Source of the DNA: Nitrospiraceae bacterium
GTDB lineage: Bacteria > Nitrospirota > Nitrospiria > Nitrospirales > Nitrospiraceae
DNA: 60,645 nt
Reading direction: 5' to 3'
NCBI GenBank assembly: GCA_041487795.1
Contig: JBGPNZ010000001.1
Coordinates: forward strand, 1 to 60,645
Under the pieces are notes generated by a model, which did no database searches, was not told the origin of the DNA, and saw only the letters and a list, made by a program, of their open reading frames with translations. This document shows positions 40,451 through 43,245 of the stretch, piece by piece; position 1 is the first letter of the stretch, and every line of letters starts with the position of its first letter. The translations under genes and the position numbers were made by a program.

Positions 40451-40522
40451 CTTGCCGACGCAGTGATGTTACGGATACTTCTGACTTGAAAAAACCGTAG
40501 CTGCAATTCTCGTCGGCATTAT
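40451..40522 (+). ncRNA. Y-RNA-like repeat 1
   Basis: 5' CTTGCCGACGCAGTGATG...GGATACTTC and 3' ATTCTCGTCGGCATTA. Terminal helix TGCCGACG/CGTCGGCA. Confidence 0.6.
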
Positions 40523-40539
40523 CCAGTCCAGGAGATCAC

Positions 40540-40791
40540 ATGAACGTCATGACCATCGAGTGGTGGCCCATATGGACGTTTCAAGTCGCTGATCCCATCT
40601 GCGATATGTGCAGCACGGAACTCGACGAGTTTCCTGCGGCGGTCGTGGATGGAAGGGGCCTGTGCAAGAAGTGCCGTCAGAACTGGCACATCAAGTACGG
40701 AGACGATGAGTACTTCGAGACTGCGAGGTACTCGATCGGAGACGAGCCTCCCGAACCTGGCGTAAACTTCGGAGGCCGCAAGAAGCAATAG
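40540..40791 (+). CDS. small zinc-ribbon protein inside the Y-RNA array
   Basis: 83 aa, RBS AGGAGA. CDMC...CKKC. Confidence 0.5.
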   Translation: MNVMTIEWWPIWTFQVADPICDMCSTELDEFPAAVVDGRGLCKKCRQNWHIKYGDDEYFETARYSIGDEPPEPGVNFGGRKKQ

Positions 40792-40797
40792 GAAAAG

Positions 40798-40894
40798 CTT
40801 GCCGATGCAGTGAGGCGAACGGGTACTTCACTACCTATGAAGAGACGGCCCGCAAGGGCCCGATCCCCCGTAAGCAATGTTCTCATCGGCATTA
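40798..40894 (+). ncRNA. Y-RNA-like repeat 2
   Basis: CTTGCCGATGCAGTGAGG..GGGTACTTCAC ... AATGTTCTCATCGGCATTA. Helix TGCCGATG/CATCGGCA. Confidence 0.65.
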
Positions 40895-40896
40895 AT

Positions 40897-40973
40897 CTTG
40901 CCAGCGCAGTGAGAGTCCGAGGTACTTCATGTTAAGGAGATACCCCTCGGACGTTACGTTCTCGCTGGCATTC
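40897..40973 (+). ncRNA. Y-RNA-like repeat 3
   Basis: CTTGCCAGCGCAGTGAGAG..GGTACTTC ... CGTTCTCGCTGGCATTC. Helix covaries: GCCAGCG/CGCTGGC. Confidence 0.65.
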
Positions 40974-40984
40974 AAAAACTCACA

Positions 40985-41055
40985 TTTGTCGGCGCAGTGA
41001 GGGACTGGGATACTTCGGATATAAGAACCTGGTCTGAATGTTCTCGCCGACTTTT
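40985..41055 (+). ncRNA. Y-RNA-like repeat 4
   Basis: TTTGTCGGCGCAGTGAGGG..GGATACTTC ... ATGTTCTCGCCGACTTTT. Helix covaries: GTCGGCG/CGCCGAC. Confidence 0.65.
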
Positions 41056-41060
41056 CAAAT

Positions 41061-41134
41061 CTTGCCGACGCAGTGAAGCGAACGGGTACTTCATAGGGAA
41101 GACAACCCCGTAAGCATTGTTCTCGTCGGCTTAA
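41061..41134 (+). ncRNA. Y-RNA-like repeat 5
   Basis: CTTGCCGACGCAGTGAAG..GGGTACTTCAT ... ATTGTTCTCGTCGGCTTAA. Ends 17 nt before the Ro60 ATG. Confidence 0.65.
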
Positions 41135-41151
41135 TCTTAAAGGAGGCCATT

Positions 41152-42771
41152 ATGGCCACGGTCAACAAGAAGGCCCAGGGCGTGAGGGCCGAGGCTCACG
41201 CGAACTGGATGGGAGGCCCGTCGTACGACATCAACGATCCCATCCTGAGGCTCCGCATCGCGGCATCGAGCTCGTTCTTCGGGGAGCCGATGTACTACCA
41301 CAAGGATGCCGAGGACAAGGTCGTCAAGCGGTACGAGGCGGGCTACAGGCTCCAGGGCGACCAGCTCAAGCATCTCCGCGACACCCTTCACGCCATGGAT
41401 CCCGAAGAGTGGCGCGGCATGTCGCCGGCCAGCCTCATGGAGAAGGCCATCGACGGCGCCCTCGACTTCTCGATCGAGAAGACTCTGGAAGAGGCCGTCA
41501 GGCTCCGGAACGAAGATCACATGCGGACGGCTCCCCAGGTGATCCTGGTTCGCGCGGCCAACCACAAGAAGGCCAAGGGTTCGGGCCTTGTCCAGAAGTA
41601 CGGAGCCGAGATCGTGAAGCGCCTGGACGAACCCTGCACGGGACTGGCCTATCAGATCTCGAAGTACGGCAAGGATGCTCCCATCCCCAACGCTCTCAAG
41701 ACGGTCTGGGGCAAGGTTCTGGAGGCGACTTCGGAATACCACATGGCCAAGTACCGCATGGAGAACCGTGAGGTCAAGCTGGTCGACGTGGTCAACCTCG
41801 TCCATCCCAAGAGCGACGTGGTCTCGAAGCTCGTCAAGGGTGAGCTGAAGAACACCGAGACCTGGGAAGCGATCCTGTCCGCCAACGGCAAGAACGACAA
41901 GAAGGTCGCCTGGGAGAAGGCTCTCGACATCATGGGCCACATGGCGATCGTGAAGAACCTCCGCAACCTGAACGAGGCCGGCGTGGACTACAAGATCTAC
42001 GCGGAGAAGTTCCTGAAGGGCGCCGCGGAAGGCAAGCAGCTCCCCTTCCGCTACTACAGCGCGTACCAGGCGGTCAAGGAAGGTGCTTCACCGGCTCAGC
42101 TCGACGGGCTGAACGACTGCCTGTTCGAGTCGATGGGCAACCTTCCGGCCTTCAAGGGGCGGGTCATGTCGCTCTGCGACAACTCGGGCTCCGCGAAGGG
42201 AGCGACCACGTCTTCCATGGGGAAGATGCAGGTGTCTTCGATCGGAAACCTGACGGGCATCATCACGGGCATGCGGGCCGAAGAGGGCTATCTCGGCGTC
42301 TTCGGCGACGAGCTCCGCGTGATGTCCGTTCCCAAGAAGGCCTCGGTCTTCCAGATGGTCGAGCAGGCCGATGCGCTCGGTGCCAAGGACGCCGGCGGCA
42401 CCGAGAACGGCATCTGGCTCTTCTGGGACAAGGCGATCAAGGACAAGGAGCACTGGGATCACGTCTTCGTGTACAGCGACATGCAGGCGGGTCACGGCGG
42501 CCTCTACGGCCTGGATGGAGCGTCCTACAAGGACTACGTCTGGGGTGGGTTCGGCGCGGGACACCAGTACATCGACGTGCCCAAGCTGATCAACGCGTAC
42601 CGCAGCAAGGTCAACCCCAAGGTCATGGTGTACCTCGTCCAGATCGCTGGGCACCAGGACACCATCGTTCCCGAGTTCTACGACCGCACCTACATCCTGG
42701 GTGGGTGGTCGGAAGGGATCCTCTGGTTCGCGGCCAAGATGGCCGGCCTCTACAACACTCCCAAGCAGTAA
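41152..42771 (+). CDS. rsr: Ro60-related (Rsr) TROVE-domain protein with C-terminal vWA/MIDAS domain
   Basis: 539 aa. N-terminal HEAT-like TROVE region (NWMGGPSYDINDP..SSSFFGEPMYY, ..QVILVRAANH.., VKLVDVVNLVHPK). C-terminal MIDAS LCDNSGSA (DxSxS). Flanked on both sides by Y-RNA-like repeats. Confidence 0.8.
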   Translation: MATVNKKAQGVRAEAHANWMGGPSYDINDPILRLRIAASSSFFGEPMYYHKDAEDKVVKRYEAGYRLQGDQLKHLRDTLHAMDPEEWRGMSPASLMEKAIDGALDFSIEKTLEEAVRLRNEDHMRTAPQVILVRAANHKKAKGSGLVQKYGAEIVKRLDEPCTGLAYQISKYGKDAPIPNALKTVWGKVLEATSEYHMAKYRMENREVKLVDVVNLVHPKSDVVSKLVKGELKNTETWEAILSANGKNDKKVAWEKALDIMGHMAIVKNLRNLNEAGVDYKIYAEKFLKGAAEGKQLPFRYYSAYQAVKEGASPAQLDGLNDCLFESMGNLPAFKGRVMSLCDNSGSAKGATTSSMGKMQVSSIGNLTGIITGMRAEEGYLGVFGDELRVMSVPKKASVFQMVEQADALGAKDAGGTENGIWLFWDKAIKDKEHWDHVFVYSDMQAGHGGLYGLDGASYKDYVWGGFGAGHQYIDVPKLINAYRSKVNPKVMVYLVQIAGHQDTIVPEFYDRTYILGGWSEGILWFAAKMAGLYNTPKQ

Positions 42772-42832
42772 CTATCCTGGGCCGCAATGGCCTGGGAATA
42801 CCCTCGGGAGGGCCTGCGTGGCCCTTCCTCTC

Positions 42833-42908
42833 GCGGCCGTAGCCTAATTGGTAAGGCGCCACCCTTCCAAGGTGGATATTACGGGTTCGAGTCCCGTCGG
42901 CCGCTCCA
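42833..42908 (+). tRNA. tRNA-Gly-UCC: tRNA-Gly (UCC)
   Basis: Acceptor GCGGCCG/CGGCCGC, anticodon loop CTTCCAA, T-arm ACGGG-TTCGAGT-CCCGT, encoded CCA. Confidence 0.9.
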
Positions 42909-42981
42909 GGCGCTGTCAGCCTCAAAATGGCGCAGGGAGTCCTTCCCTGTATGTCTGGTGGAAATCCGGGCGGGCGCTCCA
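42909..42981 (+). other. degenerate tRNA-like element ending in CCA (possible tRNA-Gly pseudogene)
   Basis: Starts right after the previous CCA. Has hairpin CAGGGA-GTCCT-TCCCTG (a 7-nt loop AGTCCTT would carry UCC), a T-like arm CTGG-TGGAAAT-CCGG and a 3' GCGCTCCA. The acceptor pairs for only ~5 bp. Confidence 0.25.
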
Positions 42982-42984
42982 ATA

Positions 42985-43121
42985 TTTGCCGATGCAGTGA
43001 GGTCTAGAGGTTCATCTGCCTGATAAGCAGGAGGAGCGGTTCGATTCCGCAGCGGCGAAAGCCGTTTGGTGTAACGGTAGCACGACTAACAACTCTCTGG
43101 ACGATGTTCTCATCGGCATTA
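42985..43121 (+). ncRNA. Y-RNA-like repeat 6, long form with tRNA-like module (YrlA-like)
   Basis: Same termini as the other repeats (TTTGCCGATGCAGTGAGG ... GATGTTCTCATCGGCATTA). The interior holds an anticodon-arm-like TCTGC-CTGATAA-GCAGG, a T-arm GCGG-TTCGATT-CCGC, a GAAA-capped helix CGGC-GAAA-GCCG and a D-arm-like GGTGTAACGGTAGCAC. Confidence 0.65.
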
Positions 43122-43124
43122 AAC

Positions 43125-43245
43125 CTTGGTCGACGCAGTGATGCAGACGGGTACTTCTAATGCGAAGAGACGGCAAGGCGTGGGAGGTCATTTGACTTTC
43201 CCTAGCTTTGTCTGACCCCCGTAGGCGCGATTCTCGTCGGCCTGA
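43125..43245 (+). ncRNA. Y-RNA-like repeat 7
   Basis: CTTGGTCGACGCAGTGATG..GGGTACTTC ... CGATTCTCGTCGGCCTGA. Helix GGTCGACG/CGTCGGCC (one G.U pair). Confidence 0.6.

What the first reader, a model, noticed from the sequence alone, without database searches (positions are those of the whole stretch)
40451..43245. Phage Ro60 (Rsr/TROVE) gene flanked by an array of seven Y-RNA-like genes
Seen: seven 70-137-nt units lie around the TROVE+vWA gene (41152-42771), five upstream and two downstream. Each begins (C)TTGYCGRYGCAGTGA(G/A/T)G ... GG(G/A)TACTTC and ends (A/G)TTCTC-helix-(C)ATT. The terminal helix covaries between copies (TGCCGATG/CATCGGCA, GCCAGCG/CGCTGGC, GTCGGCG/CGCCGAC, GGTCGACG/CGTCGGCC), while the flanking GCAGTGA and TTCTC stay fixed. 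That pattern is typical of a structured RNA with a protein-binding internal loop. Established: bacterial Rsr is encoded next to one to a few Y RNAs (YrlA/YrlB). These bind Ro through a conserved stem and tether it to exoribonucleases. Some phages are known to carry Ro/Y RNA pairs. Inference: seven divergent Y RNAs around a single phage Ro gene is an unusually large set. It sits at the head of a 39-tRNA array with an RNA ligase, which suggests a phage-run RNA quality-control or repair hub.
Basis: partly seen in the sequence, partly recalled or inferred. Interest (0 to 1): 0.85.

Follow-up and report, generated by a model that had tools for sequence, protein, structure and literature searches.

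The report
Phage Ro60 gene with seven Y-RNAs
A probable large phage carries a Ro60-like ring-shaped RNA-binding protein gene surrounded by seven small structured RNA genes of the bacterial Y-RNA type; the partnership is already known, but this set is larger than most.

Summary
Seven same-strand units (64-132 nt) flank a TROVE+vWA gene at 41152-42771. Each has a covarying 7-8 bp terminal helix, a bulged C, an invariant A-U/G-C step and fixed GCAGUGA/UUCUC strands. Six also have a UACUUC box.

A covariance model built from such units finds six of the seven in the window (five at E about 1e-11 to 1e-14) and nothing else significant in 60 kb. All 136 hits in 162 other TROVE loci lie on the gene's strand, next to the gene.

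Covariation beats 500/500 shuffles. Unit 6 has the V/T/acceptor-like/D arms of a YrlA-type tRNA mimic. The protein's predicted fold matches only Ro60/Rsr structures; the closest is Thermus phage phiLo Ro60, which is shown to bind two phage Y-like RNAs and host PNPase.

So these are very probably Y RNAs that partner the adjacent Ro60. Expression and binding are untested. Rfam has no model that detects this class, so its negative result says nothing.

Seven is the top of the range in my survey, together with a sister contig that has eight. It is not unique: Bacillus phage G has five or six, and one IMG/VR contig about six. This is a new, expanded member of a known kind.

The parts
40453..40518 (+). 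W1, a short Y-RNA-like unit (66 nt). P1 is UGCCGACG/CGUCGGCA. It is separated from W2 by an 83-aa ORF.
   Evidence: Regex plus helix scan; fold z=-4.05; R1 53.7 bits, E=3.7e-11.
40800..40891 (+). W2, a Y-RNA-like unit (92 nt) with an extra apical hairpin (GGCCCGCAAGGGCC). Its ortholog is L002:1430-1522 (82% identity).
   Evidence: E=5e-11; orthology.
40899..40970 (+). W3, a short unit (72 nt). P1 is UGCCAGCG/CGCUGGCA. Orthologs are L002:1643-1714 (84%) and L005:3800-3873 (77%), with compensatory P1 changes.
   Evidence: z=-5.1; E=2e-13.
40988..41051 (+). W4, a short unit (64 nt). P1 is GUCGGCG/CGCCGAC. Its ortholog is L002:1731-1794 (93%).
   Evidence: (E=2.9e-11).
41064..41130 (+). W5, a short unit (67 nt). 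It ends 8 nt before the AAGGAGG ribosome-binding site of the TROVE gene. Orthologs are L002:1806-1875 (87%) and L005:3722-3791 (80%).
   Evidence: (65.3 bits, E=4.7e-14).
41152..42771 (+). Ro60-like protein gene (539 aa): a TROVE HEAT-repeat ring plus a vWA domain with MIDAS motif D343-N-S-G-S347.
   Evidence: Pfam TROVE 31.1 bits against a cutoff of 23. About 2000 homologs at E<=0.001 among the candidates scored; the listed top hits are 55-62% identical and the genomic matches include Myxococcota and Chloroflexota. The A2 profile hits Thermus phage phiLo Ro60 (9kop/9l5y) at E=4e-24. AF2 model pLDDT 74, pTM 0.74. The top 13 Foldseek hits are all Ro60/Rsr. Invariant DNSGS.
42833..42908 (+). tRNA-Gly(UCC), lying between the Ro60 gene and W6.
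   Evidence: ARAGORN; Rfam tRNA 74.2 bits.
42987..43118 (+). W6, a YrlA-type long unit (132 nt). It has the Ro module, then a V arm, a T arm (GCGGUUCGAUUCCGC), an acceptor-like stem with a GAAA loop, and a D arm (GGUGUAACGGUAGCAC).
   Evidence: An alignment and consensus fold with nine other long forms shows covarying P1, T, AS and D stems. Orthologs are L002:3638-3774 (83%) and L005:5840-5970 (75%). ARAGORN miscalls part of it as tRNA-Ile.
43128..43242 (+). W7, a Y-RNA-like unit (115 nt) with a long extra apical hairpin. tRNA-Gly(CCC) starts 8 nt after it.
   Evidence: z=-3.5; 44.2 bits, E=6.9e-8.
52234..53211 (+). ATP-dependent RNA ligase gene within the tRNA array. This is context only; no link to the Ro/Y module is shown.
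   Evidence: Pfam RNA_ligase PF09414 E=4.9e-29 plus the PHA02142 OB domain.

Best explanation
The seven units are genes for small non-coding RNAs of the bacterial and phage Y-RNA (Yrl) class. The adjacent gene encodes their Ro60-like ring protein partner.

Shown by sequence and comparison:
- Each RNA closes its 5' and 3' ends into a 7-8 bp helix of free sequence.
- That helix is followed by an invariant G-C pair, a bulged C, invariant A-U and G-C pairs, and an asymmetric internal loop (UGA against N4-6UU).
- A second covarying helix follows, then a sequence-invariant UACUUC box that opens a variable apical part.
- One RNA (W6) carries a tRNA-like apical domain (YrlA type). Six are short hairpins (YrlB/Yrn2-like), and two of those have an extra hairpin.

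Inferred:
- The Ro60 ring binds the conserved bulged-helix module on its outer face, as in the Xenopus Ro-Y RNA structure.
- The different apical modules gate the ring's cavity or tether it to different partners, such as host PNPase as in RYPER and phage phiLo.
- The RNAs are co-transcribed with the Ro60 gene and the neighbouring tRNAs, then cut out at the short A/U-rich spacers.
- During infection the RNPs would redirect or supervise structured-RNA turnover alongside the phage's own tRNA set.
For: 1. Specific, non-random occurrence. Seven of eight GCAGTGA sites are clustered on one strand. R1 E-values are 5e-14 to 5e-11 for five units, 6.9e-8 for W7, and there is no other significant hit in 60 kb.

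2. Linkage to TROVE genes. All 136 R1 hits in 162 TROVE loci are on the gene's strand, within roughly 0.7 kb of the gene where I checked. A further 12 of 12 hits behave the same way. Among 80 viral loci chosen only by a 14-nt partial motif, the single locus with real units (L203) has a TROVE gene directly downstream.

3. Structure under selection. On 41 sequences the covariation score is 0.597 against 0.154 for shuffles (0/500 as high). Helix 2, which was never used for selection, has 8 of 9 pairs with double changes. On 94 sequences the score is 0.625 against 0.164, and slid controls are at most 0.14.

4. W6 and nine other long forms share V, T, AS and D arms, which is the YrlA layout described in PMC4201824.

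5. In more distant TROVE loci the 5' motif becomes P1-A-AG-CGG, the published GNCGAAN0-1G/CGAA motif, while GUUACUUC and UCUC persist. This includes Bacillus phage G, cited as having Y-like RNAs. The window's motif therefore occupies the homologous position.

6. The protein has a Ro60 fold and the MIDAS sequence motif.

7. Individual paralogs are kept as orthologs in sister contigs at 75-93% identity with compensatory changes.

8. Precedent. phiLo Ro60 binds two phage Yrl RNAs and host PNPase (PMC12135203). D. radiodurans Yrn2, tRNA-Asp and Yrn1 come from one precursor (PMC4201824).
Against: - There are no expression or binding data. The source is a metagenomic contig.
- No Rfam family matches, but Rfam also finds nothing at bacterial TROVE loci.
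- The literal GNCGAAN0-1G motif is absent.
- The protein is too divergent for sequence searches to reach D. radiodurans Rsr (no hit at E<=1) or Xenopus Ro60 (E=0.49). Orthology with characterised Ro60 rests on fold and domain content.
- W6 has lost the UACUUC box.
- No sigma-70-type promoters or intrinsic terminators delimit the units. Mature ends are unknown.
- P1 pairing in my first set was partly selected by the search regex.
Confidence: 0.8

Rival explanations
1. The upstream units are cis-acting parts of the Ro60 mRNA leader rather than free RNAs. Ro60 would bind its own leader and repress translation or stabilise the message. W5 ends 8 nt from the ribosome-binding site.
For: W5 abuts the ribosome-binding site. 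In most bacterial loci a single unit lies tens to ~200 nt upstream of the gene. No promoter-like site lies between the units and the gene.
Against: W6 and W7 lie downstream of the gene, beyond a tRNA. L013, L049, L094 and L140 have units only or also downstream. W1 is separated from the gene by another ORF. Published relatives (M. smegmatis YrlA/B, D. radiodurans Yrn1/2) are processed from precursors into stable Rsr-bound RNAs. This reading is compatible with the main explanation rather than exclusive of it.
Confidence: 0.1
2. The units are processing or punctuation elements, or tRNA-like decoys, that belong to the tRNA array. They would act independently of Ro60, for example as RNase entry sites or as baits for host tRNA-targeting nucleases.
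For: They are interleaved with tRNAs. W6 mimics a tRNA. The spacers are short and A/U-rich.
Against: R1 finds no unit anywhere else in the 17-kb tRNA array. The same module occurs beside TROVE genes in loci where no tRNA was detected, for example L012 (Polyangium) in the Rfam scan. The linkage is to TROVE, not to tRNAs.
Confidence: 0.05
3. The units are decaying tandem duplicates. Only one or two are functional Y RNAs and the rest are pseudogenes.
For: Unit number varies between sister contigs: 7, 8 and 5. L002 has an extra unit and W6 has lost the UACUUC box.
Against: Every copy keeps a perfect 7-8 bp P1, the invariant core and P2. Paralogs are individually conserved between contigs whose Ro60 proteins are 87% and 69% identical. 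Changes in the helices are compensatory.
Confidence: 0.05

Closest known systems
Bacterial YrlA/YrlB with Rsr (S. Typhimurium, M. smegmatis; Chen et al. 2014, PMC4201824)
   Same: The RNAs are encoded within a few kb of the Ro60 ortholog on the same strand. The 5' and 3' ends pair into a stem that carries the Ro site. There is a conserved box at about nt 22-25. One RNA per genome has V, T, acceptor-like and D arms, accompanied by shorter hairpin RNAs.
   Different: The 5' motif is G-C-AG-UGA (bulged C), not GNCGAAN0-1G. Both strands of the binding helix are recognisable. There are seven copies rather than about two. The setting is a phage tRNA array rather than an rtcBA operon. The protein is highly diverged from characterised Rsr.
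Thermus phage phiLo Ro60 with Yrl1/Yrl2 (PMC12135203; PDB 9KOP, 9L5Y)
   Same: A phage-encoded Ro60 with Y-like RNAs just upstream of the gene. It is the closest solved structure to the window protein (profile E=4e-24; Foldseek E=7.5e-17). It supplies experimental precedent for binding and for recruitment of host PNPase.
   Different: phiLo has two RNAs with a CGAA motif. The proteins are only about 21% identical. phiLo's RNAs are not reported as interleaved with tRNAs.
Deinococcus radiodurans rsr locus (Yrn1, Yrn2 and RNAs a, b, d)
   Same: Several small RNAs cluster upstream of rsr. Yrn2, tRNA-Asp and Yrn1 are made as one precursor. Both strands of the Ro-binding helix are conserved, with a protected G-G-C-x-G-A stretch at nt 7-12. 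That is comparable to G8-C9-A10-G11 here.
   Different: It is a chromosomal, stress-induced locus. Only two of the five RNAs are accepted as Y RNAs. I could not compare the sequences directly because they were not available to me.
Bacillus phage G gp540 (TROVE) locus
   Same: A jumbo phage with a TROVE gene beside tRNAs. Five tandem units lie directly upstream, and a possible sixth lies 2.2 kb upstream. They have P1, a bulged A, AG, GUUACUUC and UCUC.
   Different: It uses the canonical GAAGCGG-type motif. Its protein is 37% identical. The units are unannotated in the GenBank record. R1 scores are weak (E=0.013 to 0.86), so those calls rest on my inspection.
Metazoan Y RNAs (Rfam RF00019)
   Same: The terminal stem has a bulged C about nine nucleotides from the 5' end, followed by 2 bp and an internal loop. 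They partner a Ro60 ring.
   Different: There is no sequence or covariance-model similarity (no hit at E<=10). There is no 3' oligo-U. The loops differ.

Membership tests
Bacterial/phage Y RNA (Yrl class, Chen et al. 2014) | Encoded within ~4 kb of a Ro60/TROVE gene, on the same strand | tested here: met
   All seven units lie within 700 nt upstream or 480 nt downstream on the + strand. The same holds for 136/136 model hits in other TROVE loci.
Bacterial/phage Y RNA (Yrl class, Chen et al. 2014) | 5' and 3' ends pair into a stem that carries the Ro-binding site (a bulged helix) | tested here: met
   Predicted in all seven units. P1 and the AG:CU step are supported by covariation or invariance across 94 sequences.
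Bacterial/phage Y RNA (Yrl class, Chen et al. 2014) | 5' motif GNCGAAN0-1G (the 'CGAA motif') | tested here: not met
   The units read GCCGA(C/U)GCAGUGA, GCCAGCGCAGUGA and so on. The motif position is occupied by the end of P1, a bulged C and AG. Distant TROVE loci show the canonical ...CGA-A-AG-CGG at the same position. This is therefore a variant of the motif, not the motif itself.
Bacterial/phage Y RNA (Yrl class, Chen et al. 2014) | Conserved YUAY at about nt 22-25 | tested here: inconclusive
   W1-W5 and W7 have (A/G)UAC-UUC at nt ~23-29, that is RUAC rather than YUAY. Bacterial relatives have UUAC or UUCC. W6 has UUCAUC.
YrlA subtype (tRNA-mimic Y RNA) | Apical domain with V arm, T arm (GGUUCGAnUCC), acceptor-like stem-loop and D arm, in that order | tested here: met
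   Met by W6 only. The alignment and consensus fold with nine other long forms shows covarying T, AS and D stems and an invariant T loop.
Bacterial/phage Y RNA (Yrl class, Chen et al. 2014) | Stable small RNA physically bound by the Ro60 protein | not testable with these tools
   Needs RNA-seq or Northern blots and RIP or EMSA.
Metazoan Y RNA (Rfam RF00019) | Match to the Rfam covariance model | tested here: not met
   No Y_RNA hit at E<=10 in 40300-43400.
Ro60/Rsr protein | TROVE (HEAT-repeat ring) domain | tested here: met
   Pfam PF05731 at 31.1 bits against a cutoff of 23, partial coverage. The predicted fold aligns over 470-555 columns to every solved Ro60/Rsr, with E=1e-9 to 7.5e-17 and TM 0.5-0.69.
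Ro60/Rsr protein | C-terminal vWA domain with a MIDAS motif (DxSxS) | tested here: met
   D343-N-S-G-S347 is invariant in 20 homologs. An alternating beta/alpha C-terminal domain is predicted.
Ro60/Rsr protein | Sequence-level relationship to characterised Ro60 (D. radiodurans Rsr, Xenopus or human Ro60) | tested here: inconclusive
   The profile search gives human Ro60 E=0.018, Xenopus E=0.49 and no hit to 2NVO at E<=1. Only phage phiLo Ro60 is significant.
RYPER-type complex (Ro60-Y RNA-PNPase) | Y RNA tethers Ro60 to an exoribonuclease | not testable with these tools
   No PNPase gene was seen in the window among the ORFs scanned. A host enzyme would be needed.

The most novel reading that the evidence does not exclude
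The seven or eight individually conserved paralogs form a modular adaptor set. They share one Ro60-docking module but carry different apical 'heads': a tRNA mimic, bare hairpins and two-hairpin forms. With them, a single phage ring protein could be coupled to several different host enzymes or RNA targets. Alternatively they could act as decoys against host tRNA- or RNA-directed defences, working with the phage's own tRNA set and RNA ligase. That would make Y-RNA diversification a phage counter-defence or takeover strategy.
Probability: 0.2. Interest if true: 0.7.

Novelty: new member of a known kind. Interest (0 to 1): 0.45.

Why it matters
Why cells keep several Y RNAs for one Ro60 protein is still unclear. 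A compact locus with seven distinct, individually conserved Y RNAs and one Ro60 offers a natural panel for testing that. The panel includes one tRNA mimic and six short forms that share an identical docking module.

The experiment would ask whether different apical modules recruit different partners. The comparative set assembled here defines a covariance-supported core: terminal helix, bulged C or A, AG:CU step, and UACUUC box. Rfam lacks this core. It finds short Y RNAs that earlier homology searches were reported to miss.

Tried and rejected
- Rfam at gathering and at E<=10 gave only tRNA hits. A control on 20 TROVE loci, including Sorangium and Deinococcus, also gave no Y-RNA family, so the negative result carries no weight.
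- Megablast of the region against 50,697 phage records found no match.
- The supplementary alignments of Chen 2014 are not held, and the 2020 review is not held. I therefore could not compare directly with published YrlA, YrlB or Yrn sequences.
- A pattern scan of IMG/VR with a 14-nt partial motif returned mostly chance matches. Only 1 of 80 loci was real. It served as a negative control.
- The metagenome scan with the single protein gave only five distant relatives, and no further members of the lineage.
- The sigma-70 promoter and intrinsic terminator scan was at background level.
- My relaxed motif scanner has a high false-positive rate: 61 hits on the wrong strand in 1.25 Mb. I used it only to flag loci for inspection.
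- PHROG scans of 30 ORFs found replication and nucleotide-metabolism genes but no capsid, terminase or tail gene. 'Phage' therefore remains an inference.
- I considered a K-turn or loop-E reading of the internal loop. It has no supporting G-A pairs, so I dropped it.

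
Full report
**What is there**

Reading 40200-43500 and a helix-anchored scan confirm seven + strand units. Five lie upstream (W1-W5) and two downstream (W6, W7) of a 539-aa ORF at 41152-42771.
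- W1 40453-40518
- W2 40800-40891
- W3 40899-40970
- W4 40988-41051
- W5 41064-41130
- W6 42987-43118
- W7 43128-43242

W1 is separated from W2 by an 83-aa ORF. A tRNA-Gly lies between the ORF and W6. Another tRNA-Gly starts 8 nt after W7.

Seven of the eight GCAGTGA sites in the 60.6-kb window are these units. All seven fold with the same layout (z -2.7 to -5.1):
- a 7-8 bp terminal helix (P1) closed by an invariant G-C pair;
- a bulged C;
- invariant A-U and G-C pairs, from the AG of GCAGUGA and the CU of UUCUC;
- an asymmetric internal loop;
- a second helix (P2);
- then, in six units, UACUUC opening a small hairpin.

W3 does not fit the stated 5' consensus. W6 lacks the UACUUC box. The window holds 31 genuine tRNAs rather than 39.

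**Is it more than chance, and is it a structured RNA?**

The same module turned up beside homologous genes elsewhere. I aligned 41 short units (A3) and built covariance model R1, with 68 positions and 17 pairs.

Run with filters off on the whole window, R1 finds W1-W5 at E=5e-14 to 5e-11 and W7 at 4.6e-4 (6.9e-8). The next hit has E=1.7. W6 is missed only because about 90 nt are inserted in its apex.

On A3 the covariation score is 0.597 against 0.154 for shuffles (0/500 as high), and 88.6% of cells pair against 36-54% when the partners are slid. P1 pairing was partly imposed by my search regex. P2 was not, and 8 of its 9 pairs show double-sided changes. On 94 model-aligned hits the score is 0.625 against 0.164.

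**Linkage to the protein gene**

The ORF's product has about 2000 homologs at E<=0.001 among the candidates scored. The listed top hits are 55-62% identical. The genomic matches include Polyangiales/Sorangium, Anaerolineae, Bradymonadia, Chthonomonadaceae and a Deinococcus.

I fetched 80 genomic and 80 IMG/VR loci around such genes, plus two sister contigs:
- L002, whose Ro60 is 87% identical;
- L005, whose Ro60 is 69% identical.

R1 gives 136 hits in these 162 loci. Every one is on the gene's strand and adjacent to the gene. Twelve more hits behave likewise in six further loci.

As a reciprocal test I scanned IMG/VR with a 14-nt partial RNA motif. Of the 80 returned loci (726 kb), only L203 has real units. 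L203 has a TROVE homolog directly downstream of them. The RNA and the protein gene are therefore a conserved pair.

**What kind of RNA**

Chen et al. 2014 (PMC4201824) define bacterial Y RNAs by these features:
- proximity and co-orientation with the Ro60 ortholog Rsr;
- a 5' motif GNCGAAN0-1G;
- a YUAY box near nt 22-25;
- in at least one RNA per genome, a tRNA-like domain with V, T, acceptor-like and D arms;
- shorter hairpin RNAs (YrlB, Yrn2) alongside.

W6 and nine other long forms align with exactly that arm order. They show an invariant GGUUCGAnUCC T loop and covarying T, AS and D stems.

The literal GNCGAA motif is absent from the window. In more distant TROVE loci (37-41% identity) the same position reads P1-A-AG-CGG, which is the published motif, while GUUACUUC and UCUC persist. 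These loci include Bacillus phage G, which the literature cites as carrying Y-like RNAs. The window's G-C-AG-UGA is therefore the homologous site with a bulged C. That bulged C resembles the one at position 9 of metazoan Y RNAs, a comparison I make from my own knowledge of those sequences.

Rfam has no family that detects any of this, even at bacterial loci.

**The protein**

- Pfam scores TROVE above its cutoff, but only over residues 232-308.
- Sequence searches of the PDB reach only Thermus phage phiLo Ro60 (profile E=4e-24). Human Ro60 is marginal (0.018) and D. radiodurans Rsr is not found.
- An AlphaFold2 model (pLDDT 74, pTM 0.74) matches all solved Ro60/Rsr structures over their full length, and no other fold is comparably matched.
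- The vWA MIDAS motif DNSGS is invariant.

It is a divergent but genuine Ro60-fold protein.

**How it probably works**

This part is inferred. By analogy with Xenopus Ro-Y RNA, D. radiodurans RYPER and phage phiLo, the ring binds the conserved bulged-helix module. In phiLo, Ro60 binds two phage Yrl RNAs and assembles with host PNPase (PMC12135203). The variable apices would then gate the cavity or tether the ring to partners.

Co-orientation, short A/U-rich spacers, interleaved tRNAs and the lack of promoter or terminator signals suggest one precursor that is processed like the Yrn2-tRNA-Yrn1 transcript of D. radiodurans.

A cis-regulatory role for W5, which ends 8 nt from the ribosome-binding site, is possible in addition.

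**How unusual is seven?**

With R1, bacterial loci mostly have one unit and at most 3-4 (L013, L006, L049). IMG/VR contigs have 1-4. L005 has 5, the window 7 and L002 8.

R1 under-counts in distant loci. Inspection shows five tandem units upstream of phage G gp540, plus a possible sixth 2.2 kb upstream, and about six downstream of the TROVE gene in L140. Arrays are thus a recurrent phage feature, and this lineage sits at the upper end.

The paralogs are old and individually maintained:
- W4~A5, 93% identity
- W5~A6, 87%
- W3~A4, 84%
- W6~A7, 83%
- W2~A2, 82%

Several also have L005 orthologs, with compensatory helix changes.

**Context**

Genes in the window are co-oriented. They include:
- helicase, primase-helicase, a class II ribonucleotide reductase, a radical-SAM enzyme and NAMPT;
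- a polymerase-like protein and a DNA-repair protein;
- superoxide dismutase, an RNA ligase, a NADAR protein and peptide deformylase.

No virion gene was found among the 30 ORFs scanned against PHROGs. The phage label is therefore likely, from gene content and IMG/VR relatives, but not proven. The link between Ro/Y RNAs and the ligase is only positional: they are 9.5 kb apart.

**Verdict**

The finding is correct and well supported comparatively. It is a new, expanded member of the known phage/bacterial Ro60-Y RNA kind, with a bulged-C motif variant shared with many bacterial loci. It is of moderate interest, mainly as a natural panel for asking why one Ro60 needs many Y RNAs.

Noticed in passing
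L037:2655-2789 (Sorangium cellulosum So ce56, NC_010162.1); also L007:2172-2313: A circularly permuted YrlA. The gene is tRNA-shaped, with an acceptor stem and encoded CCA, a D arm and a T arm. Its anticodon arm is replaced by the Ro module closed by a loop (...UUCUC-CGGCGC-GAUGA-GCGCCG-GCAGUGA...). The Rfam tRNA model spans it over 135 nt. A normal short unit follows at 2799-2868.
   Followed up: partly
window:42909-42984: This 76-nt spacer between tRNA-Gly and W6 folds as a degenerate cloverleaf ending in UCCA, with a 6-bp acceptor-like stem and a T-like arm with loop UGGAAAU. The z-score is only -1.6, and neither ARAGORN nor Rfam calls it. It is absent from the L002 ortholog region. It may be a tRNA remnant.
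   Followed up: partly
window:42986-43059: ARAGORN's tRNA-Ile(GAT) call is a false positive. It is made from the 5' half of W6 (P1 strand, V arm and T arm).
   Followed up: yes
L292:2252-2952 and ~771-926 (Bacillus phage G, JN638751.1, upstream of gp540): Five tandem Y-RNA-like units lie directly upstream of the TROVE gene, and a possible sixth lies 2.2 kb upstream. Each has P1, a bulged A, AG or UG, CGG...ACAGUUACUUC...UCUC, and P1'. None is annotated in the record.
   Followed up: partly
L140:4671-5574 (IMG/VR UViG_3300032167_000043): About six tandem units lie downstream of a TROVE gene that is 38% identical. The 5' strands read ...UGA-(A/U)G-CAGU..., a form that mixes the two motif classes.
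   Followed up: no
L002:1532-1635: The sister contig has an eighth unit with no counterpart in the window. It has the Ro module plus a T arm (GCUGGUUCGAGUCCAGC) and two other hairpins, but no D arm.
   Followed up: no
window:40540-40791 and 39966-40445: An 83-aa ORF with paired Cys motifs (CDMC...CKKC) sits between W1 and W2 and is conserved in L002 (1161-1421). The preceding ORF has a treble-clef zinc-finger domain (PF13451), and an ORF with the same domain lies upstream of the array in L005.
   Followed up: no
window:46425-60346: The tRNA array is interspersed with auxiliary genes: Fe/Mn superoxide dismutase, RNA ligase, a NADAR-domain protein, NAMPT, peptide deformylase, and a protein with a K1-lyase C-terminal domain.
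   Followed up: partly
L071, L085, L118, L122 and L292 (TROVE loci from genomes and phages): Many unrelated TROVE loci are embedded in tRNA gene clusters. Ro60 next to a tRNA array therefore looks like a recurrent arrangement, not a peculiarity of this window.
   Followed up: no
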